Source of the DNA: a virus
Lineage: Duplodnaviria > Heunggongvirae > Uroviricota > Caudoviricetes
Reading direction: 5' to 3' (one strand)
IMG/VR virus record: IMGVR_UViG_3300014921_000099
Location: 1-8,239 of that record
Length of the DNA stretch: 8,239 nt
The position numbers and the translations under genes are program-made. Below are positions 1-8,239 of the stretch, in pieces (within the stretch, counting starts at the first letter, position 1; each line of letters begins with the position of its first letter). Below the pieces are notes generated by a model. The model was not told where the DNA came from. It saw nothing but the letters and a program-made list of their open reading frames with translations, and ran no database searches.

Positions 1-144
1 GTCTCGGAAGTCACGTTTACTCAGGACCAGAACGGCACCCTGACGGAAATCCGTGTCGGCCCGCCTGATGCTTATCTGCCTGAACCCGAAGCCCCCGGCG
101 CGCGGAAAAAGAAAAAAGCCAGAGTACAGGAGGACCCGTTCTGA
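1..144 (+). CDS. 3' end of an upstream phage tail/baseplate gene (partial; start lies outside the window)
   Basis: Frame 1 is open from base 1 to a TGA at 142-144 that overlaps the ATG at 144 of the next gene (TGATG coupling). Composition is GC-rich like the downstream tail genes. Product cannot be assigned from 47 residues. Confidence 0.45.
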   Translation, partial: VSEVTFTQDQNGTLTEIRVGPPDAYLPEPEAPGARKKKKARVQEDPF

Positions 145-692
145 TGAGGACGATTGAAGCCATGCAGCGACAACTTCTCGGCCTGATTGGGCGGGCCGTG
201 GTGAAAAGCATCAGTGCCGCCACGAAATGTCAGACCGTGGATGTGTCCCTGATTGCCGGTGAACCCAAAGCCGGGGTTGAACATCTTGAACCCTACGGTT
301 TTACCGCAAGGGCAAACAGCGGTGCGGAAGCGGTGGTGTTGTTTCCGGATGGCGACCGTTCTCATGCGGTGGTTGTTACGGTGTCGGACCGGCGCTACCG
401 CCTGAAAGGGCTGCAGACGGGTGAGGTGGCTGTCTATGACGATCAGGGGCAGTCTGTGACGCTGACCCGGGAGGGGATCGTGGTGGACGGTGCAGGGAAA
501 ACGATCACGTTTCGCAATGCAACTGAAGCACGTTTTGAAATGGATCTGGAAGTGACCGGACAAGTGAAAGACCTGTGCGACTCCGGCGGCACCACCATGT
601 CAGCGATGCGGCTTGCCTATAACGGGCATCGTCACAGAGAGAACGGTCAGGGCAGTAACACCGACAAACCTGATAAAGCGATGGAGGCATGA
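144..692 (+). CDS. Baseplate central spike protein (P2 gpV / Mu gp45-like)
   Basis: 182-aa ORF with AGGAGG at 128-133 upstream of ATG 144. Translation has the look of the gpV/gp45 spike family, including an HxH motif ('NGHRHRENG') near the C-terminus, typical of the metal-binding spike apex. Followed by the expected baseplate gene order. Assignment by family recognition, not by search. Confidence 0.8.
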   Translation: MRTIEAMQRQLLGLIGRAVVKSISAATKCQTVDVSLIAGEPKAGVEHLEPYGFTARANSGAEAVVLFPDGDRSHAVVVTVSDRRYRLKGLQTGEVAVYDDQGQSVTLTREGIVVDGAGKTITFRNATEARFEMDLEVTGQVKDLCDSGGTTMSAMRLAYNGHRHRENGQGSNTDKPDKAMEA

Positions 693-1117
693 TGGAACTG
701 TGGCTGACGGTGAACGGTAAACGCACCTGCGCCAGCGCACCGCTGGATCCGCTGACCCGCGCCGTGGTGATTTCCCTGTTCACCTGGCGGCGGGCGGAGC
801 CTGATGACAATGCCGACGTCCCGATGGGATGGTGGGGGGATACCTGGCCTGCGGTACAGAATGACCGTTACGGCTCCCGACTGTGGCTGCTTCAGCGCAG
901 CAAACTGACCAATCAGCTGGTGCAGACGGTAAGGGGATATATCCGCGAATGCCTGCAATGGATGACTGATGACGGCGTGGTGTCCCGTATTGATCTGGAT
1001 ATCCGCCGCACCGGGATTAATGAGCTGGGTAACAGTATCACCCTCTGGCGTCGTGATGGACCAGTAATGATTTCTTTTGATGATCTGTGGAGTGCGATAA
1101 CGCATGGCGGACAGTGA
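689..1117 (+). CDS. Phage GP46-family baseplate protein (Mu gp46-like)
   Basis: 142-aa ORF whose start overlaps the stop of the spike gene (ATGA/TGATG at 689-694). Size and position between spike and baseplate J match Mu-like baseplate modules. Confidence 0.75.
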   Translation: MMELWLTVNGKRTCASAPLDPLTRAVVISLFTWRRAEPDDNADVPMGWWGDTWPAVQNDRYGSRLWLLQRSKLTNQLVQTVRGYIRECLQWMTDDGVVSRIDLDIRRTGINELGNSITLWRRDGPVMISFDDLWSAITHGGQ

Positions 1118-2162
1118 ATTTCAGCGCCCGACGCTGGCAGAAAATATCAGTATGCTCCGTAACGATTTATTCGCCAGGCTGGACGTCAGCGACACGCTCC
1201 GGCGCATGGATGAAGACGTGCGGGCAAAGGTGTATGCGGCGGCGCTGCATACGGTCTACGGTTACATCGATTATCTGGCAATGAATATGCTGCCTGACCT
1301 GTGCGATGAGTCCTGGTTGGCGCGACATGCTGCGATGAAACGGTGTCCGCGCAAGGGAGCCACGGTTGCCAGCGGGTATATGCGCTGGGAAGGTGTCAGC
1401 GATGGCCTGAAGGTGACTGCCGGGAGTGTTATTCAGCGCGATGACCTGGTGCAGTACACGACAACTGACGATGCAATCAGCTCCGGTGGTGTCCTGCGCG
1501 TGCCGATCGCCTGCTCAAGTGCAGGTGCGGTCGGTAACGCTGACGACGGTACGGCATTAATCCTGGTCACGCCGGTGAATGGTCTGCCGTCTTCCGGTGT
1601 GGCTGACACCCTGACAGGCGGATTTGATACTGAAGAGCTGGATACGTGGCGCGCCCGCGTCATTGAGCCGTATTACTGGACGCCGCAGGGCGGGGCTGAC
1701 GGGGACTATGTCGTCTGGGCTAAAGAAGTGCCTGGCATTACCCGCGCATGGACATACCGACACTGGATGGGAACGGGGACTGTCGGTGTGATGATTGCCA
1801 GCAGTGACCTGATTAATCCCATTCCGGAAGAATCAACGGAAACGGCGGCAAGACAACATATCGGGCCACTGGCCCCGGTGGCAGGCTCTGATTTGTATGT
1901 GTTCAGGCCGGTGGCACATACGGTGGATTTTCATATCCGTGTGACGCCGGACACACCGGAAATACGGGCTGCCATCACCGCGGAGTTGCGTTCGTTCCTG
2001 CTGCGTGATGGTTATCCGCAGGGAGAACTGAAGGTGTCACGTATCAGTGAAGCGATTTCCGGTGCGAACGGGGAATACAGCCATCAGTTGCTTGCACCGG
2101 CGGACAATATCACCATTGCAAAAAATGAACTGGCGGTTCTGGGGGCGATTTCATGGACGTGA
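1104..2162 (+). CDS. Baseplate J-like protein (Mu gp47 / P2 gpJ family)
   Basis: 352-aa ORF overlapping the previous gene by 14 nt and the next by 10 nt. Size and position are typical of the baseplate J wedge protein. GC-rich codon usage consistent with neighbours. Confidence 0.8.
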
Positions 2163-2737
2163 CAAACGATGATTACATCCGTCTGTTGTCAGCACTGTTG
2201 CCGCCCGGTCCGGCGTGGTCAGCCAGCGATCCGGCGATTGCCGGTGCGGCACCGTCATTAACCCGCGTTCATCAGCGTGCGGATGCCCTGATGCGGGAGC
2301 TGGATCCGCGCACCACCACCGAACTGATAAATCGCTGGGAGCGTCTGTGCGGCCTGCCGGATGAATGTATTCCTACAGGGACACAGACCCTTCGCCAGCG
2401 TCAGCAACGGCTGGATGCGAAGGTGAACCTGGCGGGGGGCCTCAACGAGAATTTTTATCTTGCACAGCTTGCTGCCCTGGGCAGACCGGATGCCAACATC
2501 ACGCGATACGACAAAAGCACGTTCACCTGCTCATCGGCCTGTACTGACGCGGTGAATGCGCCTGAATGGCGGTATTACTGGCGGGTCAACATGCCAGCCG
2601 CCACCAACACCACCTGGATGACATGTGGCGATCCCTGTGATTCCGCGCTGCGCTTCTGGGGGGACACCGTTGTCGAGTGTGTTCTTAACAAACTCTGCCC
2701 GTCGCATACCTATGTGATTTTTAAATATCCGGAGTAA
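2153..2737 (+). CDS. Tail protein, P2 gpI / Mu gp48 / YmfQ-like (DUF2313 family)
   Basis: 194-aa ORF immediately after baseplate J and immediately before the tail fibre gene, the conserved location of the gpI-like protein. N-terminal '[16 protein letters not shown]' region is characteristic of this family as I recall it. Confidence 0.75.
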
Positions 2738-2740
2738 TCC

Positions 2741-3388
2741 ATGCATCGTATAGACACGAAAACCGCGCAGAAGGATAAGTTCGGCGCGGGTAAGAACGGT
2801 TTTACCCGTGGTAACCCCCAGACCGGCACGCCTGCCACCGATCTGGATGATGACTACTTTGACATGTTGCAGGAGGAGCTTTGCAGCGTTGTGGAGGCAT
2901 CCGGTGCCAGCCTGGAGAAGGGGCGGCATGACCAGCTGCTTACCGCGCTTCGTGCGCTGCTGTTAAGCCGCAAGAATCCGTTTGGCGATATCAAATCGGA
3001 TGGCACGGTGAAAACAGCTCTCGAAAACCTTGGTTTGGGAGAAGCGGCAAAGAGGAATGTGGGGACAGGAGAAAATCAGGTTCCGGATATGAACAGCTTT
3101 GGTAACTCATTGACCGCCAATGGATACCAGAAATTACCTGGGGGGATGATTATTCAATGGGGGAGTTTTTCTGTCTCACCAACCGGAGGAAGTGTTGGAA
3201 CAGTTGATATAACATTACCTGTAGCTTTCCCTGCTGCTTGTCGTTCGGTAAACGCTCTTATTTCAACTAATGATCCTTCTGCCCGTTCTGTGGGCTTTGA
3301 TATTGGAAGTACCAACAGAACCAAAATCAGATTTACTTACACTTCTGCTACAACAAATTCAATTTACTGGATGGCTGTGGGGTATTAA
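2741..3388 (+). CDS. Tail fibre protein: constant N-terminal part (codons 1-~93) fused to the variable C-terminal part currently in the expressed orientation
   Basis: 215-aa ORF. N-terminus '[21 protein letters not shown]...' resembles the conserved N-terminal region of enterobacterial e14/Mu-type side tail fibres. The reading frame runs through the crossover site at 3019-3042 ('LENLGLGE'). GC drops sharply downstream of the site, as expected for a swapped variable domain. Confidence 0.85.
3019..3042. repeat. Invertase crossover site (gix/pix/hix-like), left copy, inside the tail fibre ORF
   Basis: TCTCGAAAACC-TT-GGTTTGGGAGA has imperfect dyad symmetry and closely resembles hix/gix sites (hixL recalled as TTCTTGAAAACCAAGGTTTTTGATAA). 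Its reverse complement shares the core TTGGTTTGGGAGAAG exactly with the site at 4877-4900. Confidence 0.7.
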
Positions 3389-3390
3389 CT

Positions 3391-3822
3391 ATGGAAAAGA
3401 CATATTATTTTAATCCCTCTGATTCGGGATTTTATATTTCACCAGATAGCCAAACCATTCCTGAGAACGCTACGAAAATAAACTTTACTATTTATTCTGA
3501 GTTCGCAGGAGTTGCATGGCCTGATGGTAAAATACTTGGTTCAGATAAAAATGGTTTTCCAGCATGGCAGGATGCGCCACCACTTACCAGCGAAGAATTA
3601 ATCTCAATCGCTGAATCAAATAAACAGCGATTAGTTAATCAGGCCAACGAATACATGAACAGTAAACAATGGCCTGGTAAAGCGGCGATTGGTCGTCTGA
3701 AAGGTGAGGAACTGGCGCAATATAATTTGTGGCTGGATTATCTGGACGCACTGGAACTGGTCGATACTTCCAGTGCGCCAGATATTGAATGGCCTACTCC
3801 TCCGGCAGTTCAGGCCAGATGA
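3391..3822 (+). CDS. Tail fibre assembly chaperone (Tfa / Mu U-like), expressed orientation
   Basis: 143-aa ORF starting 2 nt after the fibre stop. C-terminus '...LDYLDALELVDTSSAPDIEWPTPP' is the conserved Tfa C-terminal motif. Confidence 0.85.
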   Translation: MEKTYYFNPSDSGFYISPDSQTIPENATKINFTIYSEFAGVAWPDGKILGSDKNGFPAWQDAPPLTSEELISIAESNKQRLVNQANEYMNSKQWPGKAAIGRLKGEELAQYNLWLDYLDALELVDTSSAPDIEWPTPPAVQAR

Positions 3823-4396
3823 CATCCGGCGCGGTACTGGTATCTGTTGCCGTCACCGCGTCAATGTAATCCAGCACAGTGTTAAGTCGGGTGGTCTCTG
3901 CCTGCATCAGCTTCCGCCCGGCCTGCAATTTCAGTTGAATCAGACTAATGGAAGCCATTGCAGTATCAATCAGTGACTGACGTTGTGCTTCTGCCGCGTC
4001 TACTGCGGCGCTATGCTGTGTCTCAGTATCCGTTACCCATTTCTCACCATCCCATTTATCGTATGGCGTTAACGGGGCGATAGTGGTTGTTTTTTCGGGG
4101 TAATCACCCGGAGTTGTGATTTCTTTGGCGTCTCCCGTTTCGGTGTTATAGACGATTTCACCGCGATGGTCTGGTACATATTCCCATGAGTTAAAATCTG
4201 CAGAGCGGCAGATTGCATAACCAGCTTTGTAGGTGCCTGGAGCATCTAAACAGGAATATGCCGGAATGCCGACACCAACAGCAAGATATTCAGTTGAAGC
4301 TGAAATATACTCCCGACTCATGACGTCAAAGTTATAAACAGTAATTTCTCCTGCCATAGTGGCAATTAATTCACTGTTTAATTCTGCGTTATTCAT
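3794..4396 (-). CDS. Alternate tail fibre assembly chaperone (Tfa' / Mu U'-like), silent orientation
   Basis: 200-aa ORF on the - strand. C-terminus '...LDYIDAVTATDTSTAPDVIWPELPEE' is the same conserved Tfa motif. Start ATG overlaps the stop of the alternate fibre cassette (TAATG at 4394-4398). Its 3' end overlaps the + strand tfa convergently by 29 nt. Confidence 0.8.
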   Translation of the reverse strand: MNNAELNSELIATMAGEITVYNFDVMSREYISASTEYLAVGVGIPAYSCLDAPGTYKAGYAICRSADFNSWEYVPDHRGEIVYNTETGDAKEITTPGDYPEKTTTIAPLTPYDKWDGEKWVTDTETQHSAAVDAAEAQRQSLIDTAMASISLIQLKLQAGRKLMQAETTRLNTVLDYIDAVTATDTSTAPDVIWPELPEE

Positions 4397-4900
4397 TATG
4401 CAGCCCTCACAATATAGTTAAAAGCGACATTTCGTGGGCGTGTTTCATTCGCACCTGCAGGTTTAGTCGTTGCCGCAACAACACCACCCTCTGTAATAGC
4501 CGGGTTGGGAATTGGGTAATTATCGAAGTCAATGGCTGGAGACAGGGGCGTGATTTGTTTTAAAATCGTGGTGCCTGTAAAACTTTCCAGAGTCTGGTCG
4601 TTAGTTCGTGAAGTCCAGATTCCCCAATAGTGGTTATGACTGACAATCGCACCGTCCTGAAGCGTTAATAATCCCCTTCCGTTATCCACTCCACGCCCGT
4701 CATCCCAGCCACGAATAAACTCACCACGTAAATCAGGCAATTTATTTGTCGGATAAGCCTTTGCCAGTTCCGGGTATTCTTCAGCAGAAAAAGCGGCACC
4801 GTTGCATTTCAGCCAGCCTGTTGGCGGAGTGGCGGAAGGCCACGGAACAGGCACACCAACGGGGAATGCAGAACCTTCTCCCAAACCAACGTTTAAGAAA
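4396..4900 (-). CDS. Alternate tail fibre C-terminal (receptor-binding) cassette, promoterless and lacking its own N-terminus; becomes fused to the constant fibre N-terminus after inversion
   Basis: Minus-strand frame is open from the crossover site to the stop at 4396-4398. The frame through the site reads 'FLNVGLGE', matching 'LENLGLGE' at the left site, so inversion gives an in-frame fusion. Contains a typical fibre tip motif 'PVPWP...GWLKCNG...YPEL'. The ORF-track ATG at 4929 is probably not a real start. Confidence 0.75.
4877..4900. repeat. Invertase crossover site, right copy (inverted relative to 3019-3042), just upstream of the invertase remnant
   Basis: TCTCCCAAACCAACGTTTAAGAAA. The first 15 nt are identical to the reverse complement of the left site. 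Position immediately 5' of the invertase start is the canonical arrangement. Confidence 0.7.
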
Positions 4901-4955
4901 ATGCAGAGGTAACAGCTAACTGGCATCATTCCTGCTTTTGTCAGGGGGAGCTACC

Positions 4956-5162
4956 ATGCTTATTGGCTATGTAAGCGTATCAAAAAATGACCAGAACACA
5001 GATCTACAACGTAATACGTTGAACTGTGCAGGATGCGAGTTGATTTTTGAAGATAAGTGGTACAAAGTCCGACAGGCCGGGCTGAAAAAACTGCTCAGGA
5101 CACTATTGGCAGTAGACACTCTGGTTGTCTGGAAGCCGGGTAGCTCAGGAGCAGAACAATAG
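4956..5162 (+). pseudogene. Serine DNA invertase (Pin/Gin/Hin/Cin family), 5'-terminal remnant only; truncated and degenerate
   Basis: Translation from ATG 4956 (GGGGGAG RBS at 4944-4950) gives 'MLIGYVSVSKNDQNTDLQRN..CAGCE.IFEDK', the unmistakable N-terminus of Gin/Pin/Hin invertases. The conserved Arg of the 'GY.RVS' active-site motif is Ser here. Similarity decays after 'DTLVVWK' and the frame stops at 5162 after ~69 codons, where full-length invertases are ~185-190 aa. Downstream DNA is unrelated AT-rich sequence. The ORF-track start at 4938 is a TTG; I prefer ATG 4956. Confidence 0.8.
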
Positions 5163-5345
5163 TAAGCTACTGTGATATGCTGAAGTCTGAGTGTTTTTGC
5201 ACAATATAAGAGTATCCGTGAATTGCACATCGCTATTGATGAGTATATCCATATTACATTAATGAACGTCTGATATACTATAATTTTAGCTATGTCTTTT
5301 ATGATAGAATTAGGAAACAATAAAACATCATTGATGATGTACCTT

Positions 5346-5352
5346 TAAGGAG
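5346..5352 (+). promoter_or_regulatory. Ribosome-binding site of the 377-aa cargo gene
   Basis: TAAGGAG, 5 nt upstream of ATG 5358. Confidence 0.6.
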
Positions 5353-5357
5353 TTTAT

Positions 5358-6491
5358 ATGCTGGAAACAGCTCAAAAGAATGCAGGAAGACCTTATCCTG
5401 ATGCTCTTGTAAATCGCTTCGTTTTAGATATATCTAAGCTAAAGGATGGTGATGTTATCGTAGAGCATGGTTATAGTACTTACAGCCCAACAATTGAAAA
5501 AGTAACTAAGTGTTATTATACGCATGCAATGATTTACCTTGAGGGAACTATTATTGAGGCTACAAGTGACGGTGGCGTGTTTTCTAGAGTTCCCAATAGA
5601 ATAGCTGTTCCATTAGAAAAAGATTTGGTTGTATTAAGATTAAAGAATTCATTAGATCCGTATATTATGAATCTAATAACATCAAGGGCTAGGGAGTTGA
5701 TTGGTTCAAGCTATAGTATAACTGAAGCAGCATCAACACAAATATATAAAAACACTCCTGCTAAAAAAGCAAATATAAAAATCAAACCTAAGAGAAGTCA
5801 ATTCTGTTCTAGACTTGTTGCTCAATGCTATTCTTATGGTGGAGTTAATATAGTCGATAATATAGATTACTGTACGCCGAAGGATATCTTTAACTCTATA
5901 TACTTGCAACCAGTTCATAACGCAATTAAAGAAGGTTCGTCAGAAGAAATCTATCATGCCAATATAGGGGAGTTACATCCTAAACACCTAAAATCTTGTG
6001 TCGCCTGGGTTAAAACTGCAAAAAAAATTCTTGCCAAGCATGATGTTAAAGTTCAAACAATTAATGAAATCATACATGCCGTGGTAAAATTAAATAATAC
6101 CAAAGTCGATAAGGCAGTCTTTAAAGCCATCAATGATAGTGGTTACTTACAAGATTATGTTGATGATCGCATTCAAAATGAATATAGATATAACATAGTA
6201 ATGTTTCTTGATTTTTATAAAAAACAACAAATCTCTATCGAGATGGAAATTGAAAAAGAATTTGGCATTTATAAAACCAGGAAAAGTAATTTTCAAACTT
6301 ATAAGGATATGTATGAAGAACACCCAGCCAGAATAATAAAATGCCATCTTGATCTTGAAAAAAAACTATTAAAAAGCATTCATGAAAGATTAACCATTAT
6401 CCTTACCGTATGTCAGATGTTAGCATTAACCCCGAAAAATATAGCCAAAGCAAAAGAAATATTTATAGATATAAAATTCTTACTTGAATAA
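5358..6491 (+). CDS. Hypothetical two-domain protein: N-terminal permuted NlpC/P60-like (YiiX/DUF830-type) Cys/His hydrolase domain, C-terminal Lys/Glu-rich helical domain of unknown function
   Basis: 377-aa ORF with strong RBS and a rho-independent terminator 10 nt after the stop. About 30% GC against ~60% in the tail genes. N-terminal ~180 aa contain 'DGDVIVEHGY', 'THAMIY', 'IIEATSDGGV' and 'FCSRLV', which I read as the His-before-Cys arrangement of permuted papain-fold enzymes (candidate catalytic H56 and C150). Residues ~190-377 are K/E-rich with no motif I recognise. Domain call is from motif recognition only. Confidence 0.8.
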   Translation: MLETAQKNAGRPYPDALVNRFVLDISKLKDGDVIVEHGYSTYSPTIEKVTKCYYTHAMIYLEGTIIEATSDGGVFSRVPNRIAVPLEKDLVVLRLKNSLDPYIMNLITSRARELIGSSYSITEAASTQIYKNTPAKKANIKIKPKRSQFCSRLVAQCYSYGGVNIVDNIDYCTPKDIFNSIYLQPVHNAIKEGSSEEIYHANIGELHPKHLKSCVAWVKTAKKILAKHDVKVQTINEIIHAVVKLNNTKVDKAVFKAINDSGYLQDYVDDRIQNEYRYNIVMFLDFYKKQQISIEMEIEKEFGIYKTRKSNFQTYKDMYEEHPARIIKCHLDLEKKLLKSIHERLTIILTVCQMLALTPKNIAKAKEIFIDIKFLLE

Positions 6492-6500
6492 TAGATGGTT

Positions 6501-6528
6501 AAAGGCTCGATATTGAGCCTTTTTATTA
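6501..6528 (+). terminator. Rho-independent terminator of the 377-aa gene
   Basis: AAAGGCTC-gatatt-GAGCCTTT perfect 8-bp stem with 6-nt loop, followed by a T-rich run (TTTATT), 10 nt after the TAA stop. Confidence 0.7.
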
Positions 6529-6539
6529 ACAGCGTTTAC

Positions 6540-7020
6540 ATAAGAGATATTACGGAGTGTTTTTGTAAGGAGGGGTTAATAATCACCTTCATTTTTATAT
6601 GGCTCGAACTATGTAGTTGAATGAAATATTACGAGGTCTGACTGTTGCATGGTTAACACCATCGCTAACATATGGATCGGGATAAGGGAATCTGGAAAAT
6701 CCAAAACTGTAATCGACTATACCATCATGATTACTGCATGACCGGAGCCTACGTCAAAGTGCCCAGCATACTGTGTGAAAGATGTTGCTGCTTGAAAACT
6801 AAGTAATGTCATACGATTATCGATTCCTCTTCCATCATCCTAGCCACGAATAAATTCACCACGTGACTCGGGTAATATGCCAGCCGGATAAACCGCGTCT
6901 AATTTTGGATAGATATTTTTATCGAAGGGGCACCGTTATATTTCAGCCAGTCTTCTGGTGGGTTGGGGAGGGGCAACGGCACTGGCAACGCGGAGCCTTC
7001 CTCCAAACCAAAAAATAAAA
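6540..7020 (-). pseudogene. Decayed second copy of the alternate tail fibre C-terminal cassette, with remnant of the tfa' start and of the crossover site
   Basis: Hand alignment shows roughly 65-70% identity between 6590-7012 and 4396-4900, in the same orientation. It includes a crossover-site remnant (CCTTCCTCCAAACCAA at ~6996-7012) and a 'ttcat' junction remnant at 6588-6592. The frame is broken: TGG to TAG in the 'GEFIRGW' region plus indels, and no ORF of 60 aa or more is called here. Upstream of the junction only ~18 codons of a tfa'-like start remain. Confidence 0.6.
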
Positions 7021-7202
7021 ACTAGAAAGCCTGAGTCTGGTGCAATACCGAATTCAGGCTATGGTAACCGCTTACTATCATGTTTGATTTTAAGGAGGCT
7101 GCTTAGAGAAGCGATTTTAACGTTCTTAAGATGAATAACACATAGCTGACGCAAATGTTGTTTGCATTATGCAACATTTATTTATGGGGTATTTCAACCG
7201 AT

Positions 7203-7580
7203 TTAAGCTTTTACTCGGCCTTTAACTCCCGCCATTAGACTATGCTTTCCTTCTAAATCTACGTCAGATGTCCATATTGTGTAATTGCGGCTCTTGCGGC
7301 TAGAGGCAACAATCTTACTCTTAATTTCTCTTGGGGACATGTTCTTTGCTTGAGCTACAAGCACATAGTCTTTGGATGCTTTCTCTACCGCTTTCAATAA
7401 ATTTTCTGTGAGGATTTGTCCGTTGTTACGGCATCTACGAGTATTAAATCGTACAGCAAAATTCAGCGCATCCAGATAATCAGTGCGGATAGTTTCTTCT
7501 TTGAGCATCTGTTGCACGAATTTGCGGGCAGTTTTCGATTTCCCCAATTGTTTCACTACTGCTTGCTTACCGGGCTTCAT
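7203..7580 (-). CDS. Hypothetical small basic protein (125 aa, about a quarter Lys/Arg); possible nucleic-acid-binding protein
   Basis: ORF with a consensus AGGAGG RBS 5 nt upstream of the ATG. Lies 68 nt downstream of, and co-directional with, the 196-aa gene. About 40% GC. No family recognised from the sequence. Confidence 0.65.
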   Translation of the reverse strand: MKPGKQAVVKQLGKSKTARKFVQQMLKEETIRTDYLDALNFAVRFNTRRCRNNGQILTENLLKAVEKASKDYVLVAQAKNMSPREIKSKIVASSRKSRNYTIWTSDVDLEGKHSLMAGVKGRVKA

Positions 7581-7648: not shown

Positions 7649-8239
7649 TCAGATCAGTTTTGTCAAGAGCTTAGCGCGGGGCAAATTATTTCGCTTCACT
7701 CGAGCTTTGTCTGCAGCATTCAGTGAATAACCAAAAGATTCATATCTTTCAATGAGCTGCTTGTCAGGCCGACTAATATTGACCTGTCTGATACCATATG
7801 CATCAGCGAAACTCTCTGCAATGATTAGCGCAATTGGCATGACGAAACCTTTCAATGGATGATCATATGGATTTCCTTCGAGATATCTAAGTGTTATGCA
7901 GAGCCGTTTTTTAGAACGTCGACCAAGCATCAACCCGCAAAGAAAATCGCGGCATCGAATACTCACATCAATGCGTTTGGTCTGATTACGCCTTTCTTGG
8001 TTCCAGTTGATGTCAATGTAATGCCGTTTTTCTGGAAGACGCCACTCCCTGCTAGCCTCATCTGAGTCTTCATAATAGATGTGACCCAATTTGATTTCAT
8101 TAACCGGCAATCGGTTACCAAACCTTGTAGCAATAGAAAGCATAGCATCTGCGATTGCCTCAGAATAGATTAACTCATGGGTTAGCTCTTCAGTGGGACG
8201 AACTATGCTTGCTTGTACTGACTCCATATCCACTACCAT
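7649..8239 (-). CDS. Hypothetical protein (196 aa or more); N-terminus may extend beyond the window edge
   Basis: Long minus-strand ORF ending at a TGA at 7649-7651. The window ends exactly at the reverse complement of an ATG, so the true start is uncertain. About 40-42% GC. No family recognised with confidence. Confidence 0.6.
   Translation of the reverse strand: MVVDMESVQASIVRPTEELTHELIYSEAIADAMLSIATRFGNRLPVNEIKLGHIYYEDSDEASREWRLPEKRHYIDINWNQERRNQTKRIDVSIRCRDFLCGLMLGRRSKKRLCITLRYLEGNPYDHPLKGFVMPIALIIAESFADAYGIRQVNISRPDKQLIERYESFGYSLNAADKARVKRNNLPRAKLLTKLI

What the first reader, a model, noticed from the sequence alone, without database searches (positions are those of the whole stretch)
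5358..6491. 377-aa protein with a putative permuted papain-fold (NlpC/P60, YiiX-like) catalytic domain fused to an unknown K/E-rich helical domain
The N-terminal half contains, in order, a 'GDVIV' strand, 'THAMIY' (candidate His56), 'IIEATSDGGV' and 'QFCSRLV' (candidate Cys150). This His-before-Cys order is what I associate with circularly permuted NlpC/P60 enzymes (YaeF/YiiX/poxvirus G6R type). The C-terminal ~190 residues are lysine- and glutamate-rich, predicted helical by eye, and carry no motif I can place. A thiol hydrolase or acyltransferase fused to an uncharacterised partner domain on prophage cargo could be a single-protein abortive-infection effector, a peptidoglycan or protein-modifying toxin, or a secreted virulence effector. 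The domain assignment is my own pattern recognition and needs confirmation.
Basis: inference. Interest (0 to 1): 0.75.

Follow-up and report, generated by a model that had tools for sequence, protein, structure and literature searches.

The report
Prophage-borne YiiX-like thiol acyl-hydrolase
A stand-alone prophage cargo gene encodes an apparently active, circularly permuted papain-fold (YiiX-type) enzyme welded to an undescribed helical domain; it sits where related phages carry anti-phage genes, which makes it an untested candidate for a lipid-targeting phage-defence protein.

Summary

The rest appears undescribed. The C-terminal 185 residues form a confidently predicted all-helical domain with no Pfam or PDB counterpart beyond generic three-helix bundles. 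It was seen only fused behind a C92 domain (369 clusters).

The gene is always a solitary cargo gene of mobile elements. Here it fills the slot that mcrA occupies in e14-like prophages. Elsewhere it lies in the P2 Z/fun hotspot, beside bSEFIR on IncF plasmids, beside EcoRII R-M, and alone with an integrase. It has no signal peptide, no partner gene and no secretion-system context.

Best reading, by inference only: a cytoplasmic thiol acyl-hydrolase or acyl-transferase acting in phage exclusion or defence. It is a new variant of a known enzyme kind, of moderate interest.

The parts
5358..6491 (+). Complete CDS, 377 aa: two-domain YiiX-like cysteine hydrolase or acyltransferase
   Evidence: ORF and translation. 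There are 59 close homologues of 350-400 aa. AlphaFold2 model: pLDDT 89.2, pTM 0.84. dN/dS 0.36 against the Salmonella orthologue.
5347..5352 (+). Ribosome-binding site AAGGAG, 5 nt before the ATG
   Evidence: Read directly from the sequence.
5415..5933 (+). N-terminal alpha/beta catalytic domain (residues ~20-192), permuted NlpC/P60 of the YaeF/YiiX (Peptidase_C92) type
5523..5525 (+). Codon for His56, the catalytic histidine; it starts strand 56-61 in the model
   Evidence: Invariant and 99% conserved in 179 relatives. Aligns with His49 of 3KW0 and YiiX.
5556..5558 (+). [quoted passage not shown]
   Evidence: Aligns with Glu64 of 3KW0 in 'IMES' vs 'IIEA'. The position is Glu in 51% and His in 47% of 179 relatives.
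5712..5714 (+). Codon for Tyr119, the NlpC/P60 signature tyrosine
   Evidence: Aligns with Tyr127 of 3KW0 in 'SGYD' vs 'SSYS'. 99% conserved.
5805..5807 (+). Codon for Cys150, the catalytic nucleophile; first residue of helix 150-160, within the QFCSR motif
   Evidence: 100% conserved in 179 relatives. Aligns with Cys154 of 3KW0. Helix start taken from the model.
5934..6488 (+). C-terminal all-helical domain (residues 193-377): a pack of short helices (195-290) followed by a long three-helix bundle (294-376). Family-specific and not previously described.
6177..6191 (+). Conserved C-domain motif N274-x-x-R277-Y278 ('NPYRY' in most relatives, 'NEYRY' here)
   Evidence: N274 96%, R277 93% and Y278 97% conserved in 179 relatives; D251 95% and E297 89% as well. 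Its role is unknown. Conserved polar residues suggest a binding or catalytic accessory site.
6501..6527 (+). Intrinsic-terminator-like hairpin (9-bp stem 6501-6509/6514-6522) followed by a U-run, 10 nt after the stop codon
   Evidence: Fold energy -12 kcal/mol, z = -3.66, and 0 of 200 shuffles fold as well. It implies a monocistronic unit.
5265..7011 (+). Transferable cargo module: the gene plus a downstream tail-fibre cassette remnant
   Evidence: 91% identical over 1765 bp to L018 6908-8660, part of an intact P2-like Salmonella prophage. G+C is ~29-34% against 56-59% in the baseplate genes.
4938..5162 (+). Truncated pinE-like serine invertase (74 codons of ~184) marking the left junction of the cargo module
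   Evidence: Pfam Resolvase N-terminal domain, E=6.5e-6. Annotated as an incomplete recombinase in RefSeq. Intact pinE followed by mcrA occupies this place in e14 and its close relatives.
6590..7012 (-). Degenerate tail-fibre 'Collar' cassette (pseudogene with stop codons) flanking the gene on the right
   Evidence: The translation begins 'FGLEEGSALPVPLPLPNPPEDWLKYNGA', like the intact cassette at 4396-4929, and is then broken by stops. Direct repeats link 4658-4853 and 6793-6987. It is homologous to the Collar genes of L018.

Best explanation
The gene encodes a cytoplasmic, catalytically competent enzyme of the circularly permuted NlpC/P60 (YaeF/YiiX, Peptidase_C92) class. Cys150 is activated by His56, which is oriented by Glu67, with Tyr119 as the fourth catalytic residue. 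Cys150 would attack a fatty-acyl ester or amide bond and form an acyl-thioester intermediate. That intermediate is then resolved by water (lipase or amidase) or by an acceptor (acyltransferase), as in the characterised members of this permuted clade.

The catalytic domain is permanently fused to a family-specific helical domain with its own conserved polar patch (D251, N274, R277, Y278, E297). That domain most likely selects the substrate or gates the activity.

The protein is made from a self-contained, single-gene cassette that moves between mobile elements and lands in their accessory or defence slots. Its most likely biological role is therefore phage exclusion or anti-phage defence for the lysogen or plasmid host. 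It would act by attacking membrane phospholipid, or a lipidated or acylated protein, when a competing phage infects.

Shown here: the fold, the catalytic residues, the fixed two-domain architecture, the solitary mobile-element context, the lack of export signals, and purifying selection. Inferred: the lipid or acyl substrate (by homology with the clade), the regulatory or recognition role of the C-domain, and the defence function (guilt by association only).
For: Enzyme class:
- PF05708 is the top Pfam hit, and YaeF/YiiX NCBIfam models hit as well.
- The family profile matches 3KW0 at E=2.7e-9 and YiiX at 3.6e-5, with the His and Cys motifs aligned.
- The four catalytic residues defined for this clade by Xu et al. 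2011 (PMC3142127) are 99-100% conserved. The third position is Glu or His.
- dN/dS is 0.36.

Substrate class (from papers):
- YiiX crystallised with a bound fatty acid, and the clade has a hydrophobic S1 pocket (PMC3142127).
- Tox-Act1 is a phospholipase acting on PG and PE (PMC12994826).
- LnsA is required for lipoprotein N-acylation and is the proposed catalytic subunit, and HRASLS enzymes are PLA1/2 acyltransferases (PMC7387801).

Architecture:
- The C-domain profile finds 369 clusters; among the 150 listed, all full-length ones are 285-415 aa with the match behind a ~170-aa N-domain.
- 10 of 10 sampled hit C92 in that N-domain, 7 of them above Pfam's cut-off.

Single-gene unit:
- It has its own RBS and terminator.
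- Flanks in homologous loci are too short for a partner gene: 67-198 bp in L005 and 97-105 bp in L018.
- No neighbour is conserved across loci.

Defence-type contexts:
- The window's prophage is e14/SfV-like, and the gene replaces mcrA downstream of pinE.
- The 89% orthologue and the 49-52% homologues lie in the tail-fibre/invertase/sheath slot of P2-like prophages. This is the Z/fun hotspot (bioRxiv 10.1101/2024.10.15.618418). Vassallo et al. 2022 found that hotspot to be defence-enriched, with three validated systems (PMC9519451).
- On at least 50 IncF plasmids a 35% homologue lies directly upstream of a bSEFIR defence gene (PADLOC E=1e-66) and next to the YacAB toxin-antitoxin pair.
- One homologue abuts an EcoRII R-M pair.
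- One follows O/P in a lambdoid prophage.
- One forms an integrase-plus-gene islet between putA and a sodium:solute symporter gene.

Cytoplasmic location: no signal peptide or transmembrane segment; the highest 19-residue Kyte-Doolittle mean is 1.38.
Against: - There is no experimental evidence of any kind for this family.
- No PADLOC model matches it.
- No paper in the searchable library links YiiX-like proteins to phage defence.
- The same hotspots also carry non-defence cargo such as cytolethal distending toxin, partition systems and tail-fibre cassettes. Position alone is therefore weak evidence.
- The bSEFIR pairing comes from one near-identical plasmid lineage, so it counts as a single observation.
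- The lipid substrate is inferred from relatives with 15-23% identity.
- This single sequence scores below Pfam's gathering threshold (22.6 vs 27 bits).
- How a constitutively encoded lipase would be kept harmless without an antitoxin is unexplained. Gating by the C-domain is conjecture.
Confidence: 0.5

Rival explanations
1. Lysogenic-conversion enzyme. It is expressed constitutively from the prophage or plasmid and remodels envelope lipids or lipoproteins, for example by de-acylating or re-acylating lipoproteins, lipid A precursors or phospholipids. That would change surface properties, block superinfection at the adsorption or injection step, or alter recognition by the host immune system. 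No infection-triggered cell death is involved.
For: In the Sf-type relatives of this prophage, the post-tail-fibre position is the classical site of O-antigen serotype-conversion genes. That point is established knowledge of SfI, SfII, SfIV and SfV; the tail region here is 96% identical to them. A member of the permuted clade, LnsA, is required for lipoprotein N-acylation in S. aureus, and that modification changes TLR2 recognition (PMC7387801). The absence of any antitoxin or immunity partner is easier to explain if the enzyme is harmless to its producer.
Against: The protein has no signal peptide, lipobox or membrane segment, so it could reach only cytoplasmic-face substrates. LnsA needs a membrane partner, LnsB, and nothing of the kind is linked here. 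The family also occurs in free-living marine and plant-associated bacteria (Salinicola, Aurantivibrio, Photobacterium, Paracidovorax), which does not fit an animal-host immune-evasion role.
Confidence: 0.2
2. Counter-defence or element-benefit factor. The enzyme serves the mobile element itself, for example by inactivating a host or rival defence component or a lipidated receptor or exclusion protein. It would not be protecting the host from phages.
For: It is carried by very different elements (Mu-tail and P2-like prophages, a lambdoid prophage, conjugative IncF plasmids, integrase islets, an ICE-like locus). That breadth fits a function useful to any incoming element. Single-domain C92 proteins are also common in virulent and giant viruses, including poxvirus OPG091/G6R homologues.
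Against: On IncF plasmids it lies next to repA, the toxin-antitoxin pair and bSEFIR, not in a recognisable leading region. It is retained intact in decayed, immobile prophage remnants next to ssrA, where the phage genes themselves are lost. That retention points to benefit for the host. The preprint 10.64898/2026.02.27.708500 describes the same pattern for defence genes in defective P2 and P4 elements.
Confidence: 0.12
3. Interbacterial or anti-eukaryotic toxin. It would be either a Tox-Act1/TseH-type lipid-targeting effector delivered by a secretion system, or a RID/IcsB-type N-epsilon-fatty-acyltransferase injected into host cells.
For: The catalytic superfamily is the same as Tox-Act1 and TseH (PMC12994826). 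The RID domain is listed among permuted papain-like enzymes (PMC10924143).
Against: No immunity gene is adjacent in any locus examined. No T6SS, T3SS, T5SS, Rhs or PAAR context was found, and the protein has no signal peptide or N-terminal trafficking domain. Tox-Act1 is toxic only in the periplasm and is always paired with Imm-Act1. The C-domain never occurs with toxin-delivery modules.
Confidence: 0.05
4. Peptidoglycan hydrolase or lysis accessory of the prophage, which is the canonical NlpC/P60 function.
For: NlpC/P60 enzymes are best known as cell-wall endopeptidases, and some phage endolysins use this fold. Two distant relatives give weak secondary hits to PF00877.
Against: The residue order is the permuted one (His56 before Cys150), and the best structural matches are YiiX and 3KW0, not P60-type enzymes. 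There is no signal peptide and no cell-wall-binding domain. The gene is not in the lysis cassette; LysA lies upstream of the tail genes in L018. It also occurs on plasmids and integrase islets that have no lysis function.
Confidence: 0.03

Closest known systems
E. coli YiiX (PDB 2IF6) and Bacillus cereus BcPPNE (PDB 3KW0): YaeF/YiiX family, Pfam PF05708 Peptidase_C92, MEROPS C92
   Different: YiiX and BcPPNE are single-domain proteins of ~190-215 aa. This protein carries an extra 185-residue helical domain that is never seen apart from the C92 domain. It also has family-specific invariant residues: R81, R94, Q148, R152, C172, P174. YiiX is a core chromosomal gene, whereas this family is cargo of mobile elements. 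The physiological function of YiiX itself is still unknown.
Tox-Act1 and TseH (T6SS effectors with a permuted NlpC/P60 core)
   Same: They share the permuted Cys/His papain-like core and are deployed in biological conflict. Tox-Act1 is a demonstrated phospholipase on PG and PE (PMC12994826). It is the best experimental precedent for what this catalytic domain could do to a cell.
   Different: Those effectors are exported, act in the periplasm and are paired with an immunity protein. This protein has no export signal, no immunity gene and no secretion-system context. It belongs to the YiiX clade, not the Tox-Act1/DUF4105 clade. That placement rests on its best Pfam and PDB matches, not on a phylogeny made here.
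LRAT / HRASLS (PLA-AT) family and S. aureus LnsA
   Same: These are permuted NlpC/P60 enzymes that use a Cys acyl-thioester to hydrolyse or transfer fatty acyl chains (PMC7387801; PMC3142127).
   Different: LRAT and HRASLS enzymes carry a C-terminal membrane anchor and an NCEHF catalytic motif (my own knowledge). Here the motif is QFCSRLV, and no segment reaches transmembrane hydrophobicity. LnsA needs the membrane protein LnsB, and no such partner is linked here.
Cargo genes of the same phage slots: mcrA of e14; Z/fun and the PD systems of the P2 Z/fun hotspot
   Same: The genomic position and lifestyle match: a self-contained accessory gene just downstream of the tail-fibre and invertase module, exchanged between phages, and retained in decayed prophages.
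   Different: There is no sequence or fold relationship. McrA is an HNH type IV restriction enzyme, whereas this protein is a thiol acyl-hydrolase-type enzyme. A defence phenotype is proven for those genes and untested for this one.

Membership tests
YaeF/YiiX permuted NlpC/P60 enzymes (Pfam PF05708 Peptidase_C92) | Circular permutation: the catalytic His (and polar residue) precede the catalytic Cys in the sequence | tested here: met
   His56, then Glu67, then Tyr119, then Cys150. The His and Cys motifs align with those of 3KW0 in the profile alignment. The order is as defined in PMC3142127.
YaeF/YiiX permuted NlpC/P60 enzymes (Pfam PF05708 Peptidase_C92) | Four catalytic residues conserved: Cys, His, a polar third residue (Glu) and the signature Tyr | tested here: met
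   In 179 full-length relatives, C150 is 100%, H56 99% and Y119 99% conserved. Position 67 is Glu in 51% and His in 47%.
YaeF/YiiX permuted NlpC/P60 enzymes (Pfam PF05708 Peptidase_C92) | Significant sequence-profile similarity to the family | tested here: met
   This sequence alone scores below Pfam's gathering score (22.6 vs 27 bits, E=1.2e-4). The family profile, however, hits 3KW0 at E=2.7e-9 and 2IF6 at 3.6e-5. Most homologues carry a precomputed PF05708 hit, and 7 of 10 distant relatives pass the gathering score.
YaeF/YiiX permuted NlpC/P60 enzymes (Pfam PF05708 Peptidase_C92) | Papain-like alpha/beta fold, with the Cys at the N-terminus of a helix packed against an antiparallel sheet that carries the His | tested here: met
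YaeF/YiiX permuted NlpC/P60 enzymes (Pfam PF05708 Peptidase_C92) | Hydrophobic S1 pocket that binds a fatty-acyl chain | not testable with these tools
   The feature is described for YiiX, BcPPNE and PPPDE1. The tools return no model coordinates, so pocket lining could not be examined.
Anti-phage defence systems (operational definition) | Encoded in defence islands or mobile-element defence hotspots, next to known defence genes | tested here: met
   It occupies the mcrA slot of an e14-like prophage and the P2 Z/fun hotspot. Homologues lie adjacent to bSEFIR and to EcoRII R-M. This is association only.
Anti-phage defence systems (operational definition) | Homology to a protein of a known or candidate defence system | tested here: not met
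   PADLOC-DB v2 gives no hit for this protein or for its plasmid homologue. Later model libraries were not available.
Anti-phage defence systems (operational definition) | Expression reduces phage replication | not testable with these tools
   This needs plaque and infection assays. No published test was found.
Polymorphic or T6SS lipid-targeting toxins (Tox-Act1 / TseH type) | Adjacent cognate immunity gene, and linkage to a secretion system or trafficking domain | tested here: not met
   No neighbour is conserved, and intergenic flanks in homologous loci are as short as 67-198 bp. No T6SS, Rhs or PAAR genes occur in the 14 distinct loci examined. No N-terminal extension or signal peptide is present.
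Canonical NlpC/P60 peptidoglycan hydrolases (PF00877) | Cys-before-His order, plus export signal and/or cell-wall-binding domains | tested here: not met
   The order is permuted. This protein has no PF00877 hit at E<=1. It has no signal peptide and no SH3b or LysM domains.
LRAT / HRASLS acyltransferases | C-terminal transmembrane anchor and an NCEHF-type catalytic motif | tested here: not met
   The highest 19-residue Kyte-Doolittle mean is 1.38, inside a bundle helix. The catalytic motif is QFCSRLV. The best structural and profile matches are YiiX-type, not LRAT-type. The LRAT defining features are taken from my own knowledge.

The most novel reading that the evidence does not exclude
The two-domain YiiX-like family is a previously unrecognised single-protein anti-phage (abortive-infection or exclusion) system. 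Its family-specific helical domain would sense a phage component and release a permuted-papain acyl-hydrolase that destroys membrane phospholipid or strips or transfers an acyl group on a key lipidated protein. As far as I could find, it would be the first defence effector of the NlpC/P60 superfamily, and a cytoplasmic, self-contained counterpart of the T6SS toxin Tox-Act1.
Probability: 0.35. Interest if true: 0.7.

Novelty: new variant of a known kind. Interest (0 to 1): 0.45.

Why it matters
Bacterial YaeF/YiiX-type enzymes are widespread, but their physiological roles are still poorly understood. Here a distinct subfamily is fixed to an undescribed domain and travels as a one-gene cassette through the slots where prophages and plasmids keep anti-phage genes. 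That yields a directly testable hypothesis about what such enzymes are for. If the family protects against phages, it would add a lipid or acyl-targeting thiol hydrolase to the list of defence effectors. It would give the C92 family its first phenotype in Gram-negative bacteria and explain why decayed prophages next to ssrA keep this gene intact. If it does not, the case still shows that the post-tail-fibre hotspot carries non-defence enzymatic cargo, which matters for guilt-by-association screens.

Tried and rejected
1. Known defence families. PADLOC gave no hit for the protein, its plasmid homologue or its two window neighbours.
2. Identity of the C-domain.
   - Pfam and NCBIfam gave only noise (E of 0.017 or worse).
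   - The family profile found nothing for the C-half in the PDB.
3. AFDB fold search. The library was unavailable. BFVD gave only single-domain C92 viral proteins.
4. A partner gene.
   - I first suspected a two-gene system when a TIR/bSEFIR gene appeared downstream on IncF plasmids.
   - tblastn found no trace of it in the window or in the other loci fetched by then, L001-L014.
   - The pairing belongs to one near-identical plasmid lineage, and some plasmids keep the YiiX-like gene with the TIR gene truncated.
   - I therefore treat bSEFIR as a neighbour, not a partner.
5. ORF-free stretch 6492-7200. It has no Rfam family. It turned out to be a decayed tail-fibre cassette.
6. My initial label of 'P2-like prophage' for the window was wrong. 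The baseplate genes are Mu-type Gp45-48 and the element is e14/SfV-like. Only the cargo module is shared with P2-like phages.
7. PHROG 1128 was the best PHROG hit (E=5e-8). Its label, 'enoyl-CoA hydratase/carnithine racemase-like', is not supported by any other evidence, so I disregarded it.
8. Literature. Searches for YiiX, C92 or NlpC in phage defence found nothing relevant.
9. Promoter. The consensus scan found no convincing promoter upstream. A TATAAT at 5279-5284 has a poor -35 element (read by eye).
Full report
**1. The observation**

Window 5358-6491 (+) is a clean ATG-to-TAA ORF of 377 codons.
- An AAGGAG ribosome-binding site lies 5 nt upstream of the ATG.
- A 9-bp hairpin followed by a U-run lies 10 nt after the stop (dG -12 kcal/mol, z = -3.7).
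- The gene therefore looks like a self-contained, monocistronic unit.
- Its G+C content is 32%, against 56-59% in the phage baseplate genes at the left of the window.

**2. The N-terminal domain**

Against single-sequence libraries the hits are consistent but weak.
- Pfam PF05708 (Peptidase_C92, YaeF/YiiX) gives E=1.2e-4 and 22.6 bits, below the 27-bit cut-off.
- The NCBIfam YaeF and YiiX equivalog models give E~1e-4.

Family-level evidence is decisive.
- A database search found 59 homologues of 350-400 aa. Most already carry a precomputed PF05708 hit, and several are named by NCBI 'YiiX/YebB-like N1pC/P60 family cysteine hydrolase'.
- A profile of 33 of them hits the two solved C92 structures: 3KW0 at E=2.7e-9 and E. 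coli YiiX (2IF6) at 3.6e-5. 'SHAMIY' aligns with 'SHTGII', and 'QFCSRLV' with 'YICSEFV'.
- An AlphaFold2 model built from the alignment is confident (pLDDT 89.2, pTM 0.84).
- Against viral models it matches single-domain C92 proteins of phages and giant viruses, including OPG091.

Xu et al. 2011 define four catalytic residues for this permuted clade: Cys, His, Glu and Tyr. They are C154/H49/E64/Y127 in 3KW0 and C128/H49/E64/Y115 in YiiX (PMC3142127). The counterparts here are C150, H56, E67 and Y119.
- In 179 full-length relatives, C150 is 100% conserved, H56 99% and Y119 99%.
- Position 67 is Glu (51%) or His (47%). Both are acceptable third residues for a papain-type triad.
- The gene is under purifying selection against its Salmonella orthologue (dN/dS 0.36).

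It missed E67 and Y119.

**3. The C-terminal domain**

- Residues 193-377 are all-helical: a pack of short helices (195-290) followed by three long helices (294-321, 325-354, 362-376).
- Modelled alone, the domain is even more confident (pLDDT 93.4, pTM 0.86).
- It has no Pfam, NCBIfam or PADLOC family.
- A profile of the domain was searched against 1.84 billion cluster representatives and found 369 proteins. Nearly all of the 150 listed are 285-415 aa with the match beginning at residue ~165-190; the shorter ones look like fragments.
- Ten distant members were sampled. All have a Peptidase_C92 hit in front, and seven score above Pfam's cut-off.
- The domain is thus an obligate companion of this C92 subfamily, not a shuffled module.
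- It carries its own conserved polar residues: D251 95%, N274 96%, R277 93%, Y278 97%, E297 89%. That argues for a functional surface rather than a mere coiled-coil spacer.

**4. Where the gene lives**

The window comes from E. coli. The right-hand 3.2 kb is found in only 9 of 5426 complete genomes, next to ssrA, at the end of a prophage remnant truncated by IS3.

The left 5.1 kb is a common e14/SfV-type tail module.
- The baseplate genes belong to the Mu Gp45, Gp46, Gp47 and Gp48 families.
- The DNA is 98% identical to e14-like prophages and 96% identical to Shigella phages SfIV, SfI, SfII and SfV.
- In K-12 e14 and in the closest complete relatives the order is ymfQ-stfP-tfaP-tfaE-stfE-pinE-mcrA-attR.
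- In the window the invertase is cut to 74 codons (4938-5162). The place of the type IV restriction gene mcrA is taken by a 1.75-kb module (5265-7011).

That module is 91% identical to part of an intact P2-like Salmonella prophage.
- There the orthologue (89% amino-acid identity) sits between tail-fibre 'Collar' cassettes, just upstream of the invertase and the sheath gene.
- The ORF-free stretch to the right of the gene in the window (6590-7012, minus strand) is the decayed copy of one such cassette.

Other family members lie in the following places:
- between the tail-fibre assembly gene and the sheath gene of P2-like prophages in Citrobacter;
- in a decayed P2-like prophage in Pantoea;
- in a Klebsiella Peduoviridae phage genome;
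- after the O/P replication genes of a lambdoid prophage;
- on 98 plasmids, mostly conjugative E. coli IncF. There the gene follows repA and the YacAB toxin-antitoxin pair and lies directly upstream of a bSEFIR defence gene (PADLOC E=1e-66);
- next to an EcoRII restriction-modification pair;
- as the only cargo of an integrase islet between putA and a sodium:solute symporter gene in Edwardsiella;
- beside integrase or resolvase genes elsewhere.

No neighbour is conserved across these loci. In several of them the flanks are too short (67-198 bp) to hide a partner gene.

The P2 slot is the Z/fun hotspot.
- It is described as lying behind the baseplate genes, with tail-fibre swapping and frequent invertases (bioRxiv 10.1101/2024.10.15.618418).
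- Vassallo et al. 2022 report it as a second defence-enriched P2 locus holding fun and three of their validated systems (PMC9519451).

**5. How it most likely works**

What is shown:
- the permuted papain fold;
- a complete and conserved Cys-His-Glu/His-Tyr catalytic set;
- an obligate helical partner domain;
- no signal peptide or membrane segment (highest 19-residue hydropathy 1.38);
- a one-gene cassette;
- purifying selection;
- exclusive association with mobile elements, in slots that elsewhere hold defence genes.

What is inferred from the clade:
- Its characterised members act on fatty-acyl linkages through a Cys thioester.
- YiiX crystallised with a bound fatty acid in a hydrophobic S1 pocket.
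- Tox-Act1 is a PG/PE phospholipase.
- LnsA is needed for lipoprotein N-acylation, and HRASLS enzymes are PLA1/2 acyltransferases.

I therefore propose a cytoplasmic thiol acyl-hydrolase or acyl-transferase. Its helical domain would select the substrate or gate the activity. Its role would be phage exclusion or defence for the carrier cell. I put about 0.5 on the whole chain. The enzyme class is about 0.85-0.9, and the defence role about 0.35-0.45.

**6. Rivals**

- A constitutive lysogenic-conversion enzyme that remodels envelope lipids or lipoproteins (0.2).
- A counter-defence or element-benefit factor (0.12).
- A secreted toxin or effector (0.05). This is disfavoured because there is no immunity gene, no secretion context and no export signal.
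- A peptidoglycan hydrolase (0.03). This is disfavoured by the permuted order, the YiiX-type matches, the lack of export signal and the position outside the lysis cassette.

**7. Comparison with what is known, and novelty**

- Membership of the YaeF/YiiX (C92) family is met on every testable criterion: permutation, catalytic residues, profile similarity and fold.
- It is already reflected in NCBI names, so that part is not new.
- It is not a member of the Tox-Act1/TseH toxin class (no immunity or delivery), of the canonical P60 hydrolases, or of LRAT/HRASLS (no anchor, different motif).
- It matches no PADLOC defence model.
- I found no paper connecting this family, or any NlpC/P60 protein, with phage defence.
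- The fixed fusion to an uncharacterised domain and the consistent hotspot-cargo lifestyle appear undescribed.
- I rate it a new variant of a known kind, of moderate interest (0.45). The interest rises to about 0.7 if a defence phenotype is demonstrated.

**8. Limits**

- No experiment exists for this family.
- The AFDB library was unavailable.
- The bSEFIR adjacency comes from a single plasmid lineage.
- Hotspot position is suggestive but not proof, because these hotspots also carry toxins, partition systems and tail-fibre cassettes.

Noticed in passing
window 3025-3044 and 4875-4894 (segment 3025-4894): A 20-nt inverted repeat (AAACCTTGGTTTGGGAGAAG / CTTCTCCCAAACCAACGTTT, 95% complementary) brackets the tail-fibre and assembly genes, like the crossover sites of Gin/Pin-type invertible segments. 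In strain Res13-Lact-PEA14-20 (L002) the segment lies in the opposite orientation to the window, so it has inverted in nature. Here, however, the invertase is truncated to 74 codons, so the switch is probably frozen now.
   Followed up: partly
window 6590-7012 (-), with direct repeats 4658-4853 / 6793-6987: The ORF-free DNA downstream of the gene is a decayed tail-fibre 'Collar' cassette with in-frame stops. It is a second copy of the intact cassette at 4396-4929 and is co-transferred with the cargo gene from a P2-like phage.
   Followed up: yes
window 7203-7580 (-) and 7649-8227 (-): Two hypothetical genes (125 and 192 aa) lie between the cargo module and ssrA. They have no Pfam, NCBIfam or PADLOC family; the larger one has a weak PHROG 4350 hit (E=2.5e-6). 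Part of the 192-aa gene also occurs next to ssrA in genomes that lack the YiiX-like gene, so the two are not linked to it.
   Followed up: partly
window 1-5134 vs 5265-7011: There is a sharp compositional break, from 56-59% G+C in the Mu-type baseplate genes to 29-34% in the cargo module. The e14-type pinE-mcrA end has been replaced, and the element sits at ssrA instead of icd.
   Followed up: partly
L013 2583-4779 (IncF plasmid pWI2-incFII, NZ_LT838203.1): On at least 50 near-identical E. coli IncF plasmids, a 35%-identical family member lies 89 bp upstream of a bSEFIR/TIR defence gene and just after the YacAB toxin-antitoxin pair, forming a small defence islet beside repA. In other plasmids the TIR gene is truncated while the YiiX-like gene stays intact.
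   Followed up: partly
L017 5939-8077 (Edwardsiella tarda, GCA_001700615.1): A minimal integrative islet consists only of a tyrosine integrase and a family member (43-44% identity). It is inserted between putA and a sodium:solute symporter gene.
   Followed up: no
window 5358-6491; PHROG phrog_1128: The best PHROG match (E=5e-8, profile length 381 aa, similar to this protein's length) is labelled 'enoyl-CoA hydratase/carnithine racemase-like'. No other evidence supports that label, and it looks like a mis-annotation of a C92-containing phage family.
   Followed up: no
window 3391-3822 (+) and 3794-4396 (-): The two convergent tail-fibre assembly genes overlap by 29 bp at their 3' ends, as tfaP and tfaE do in e14.
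   Followed up: no
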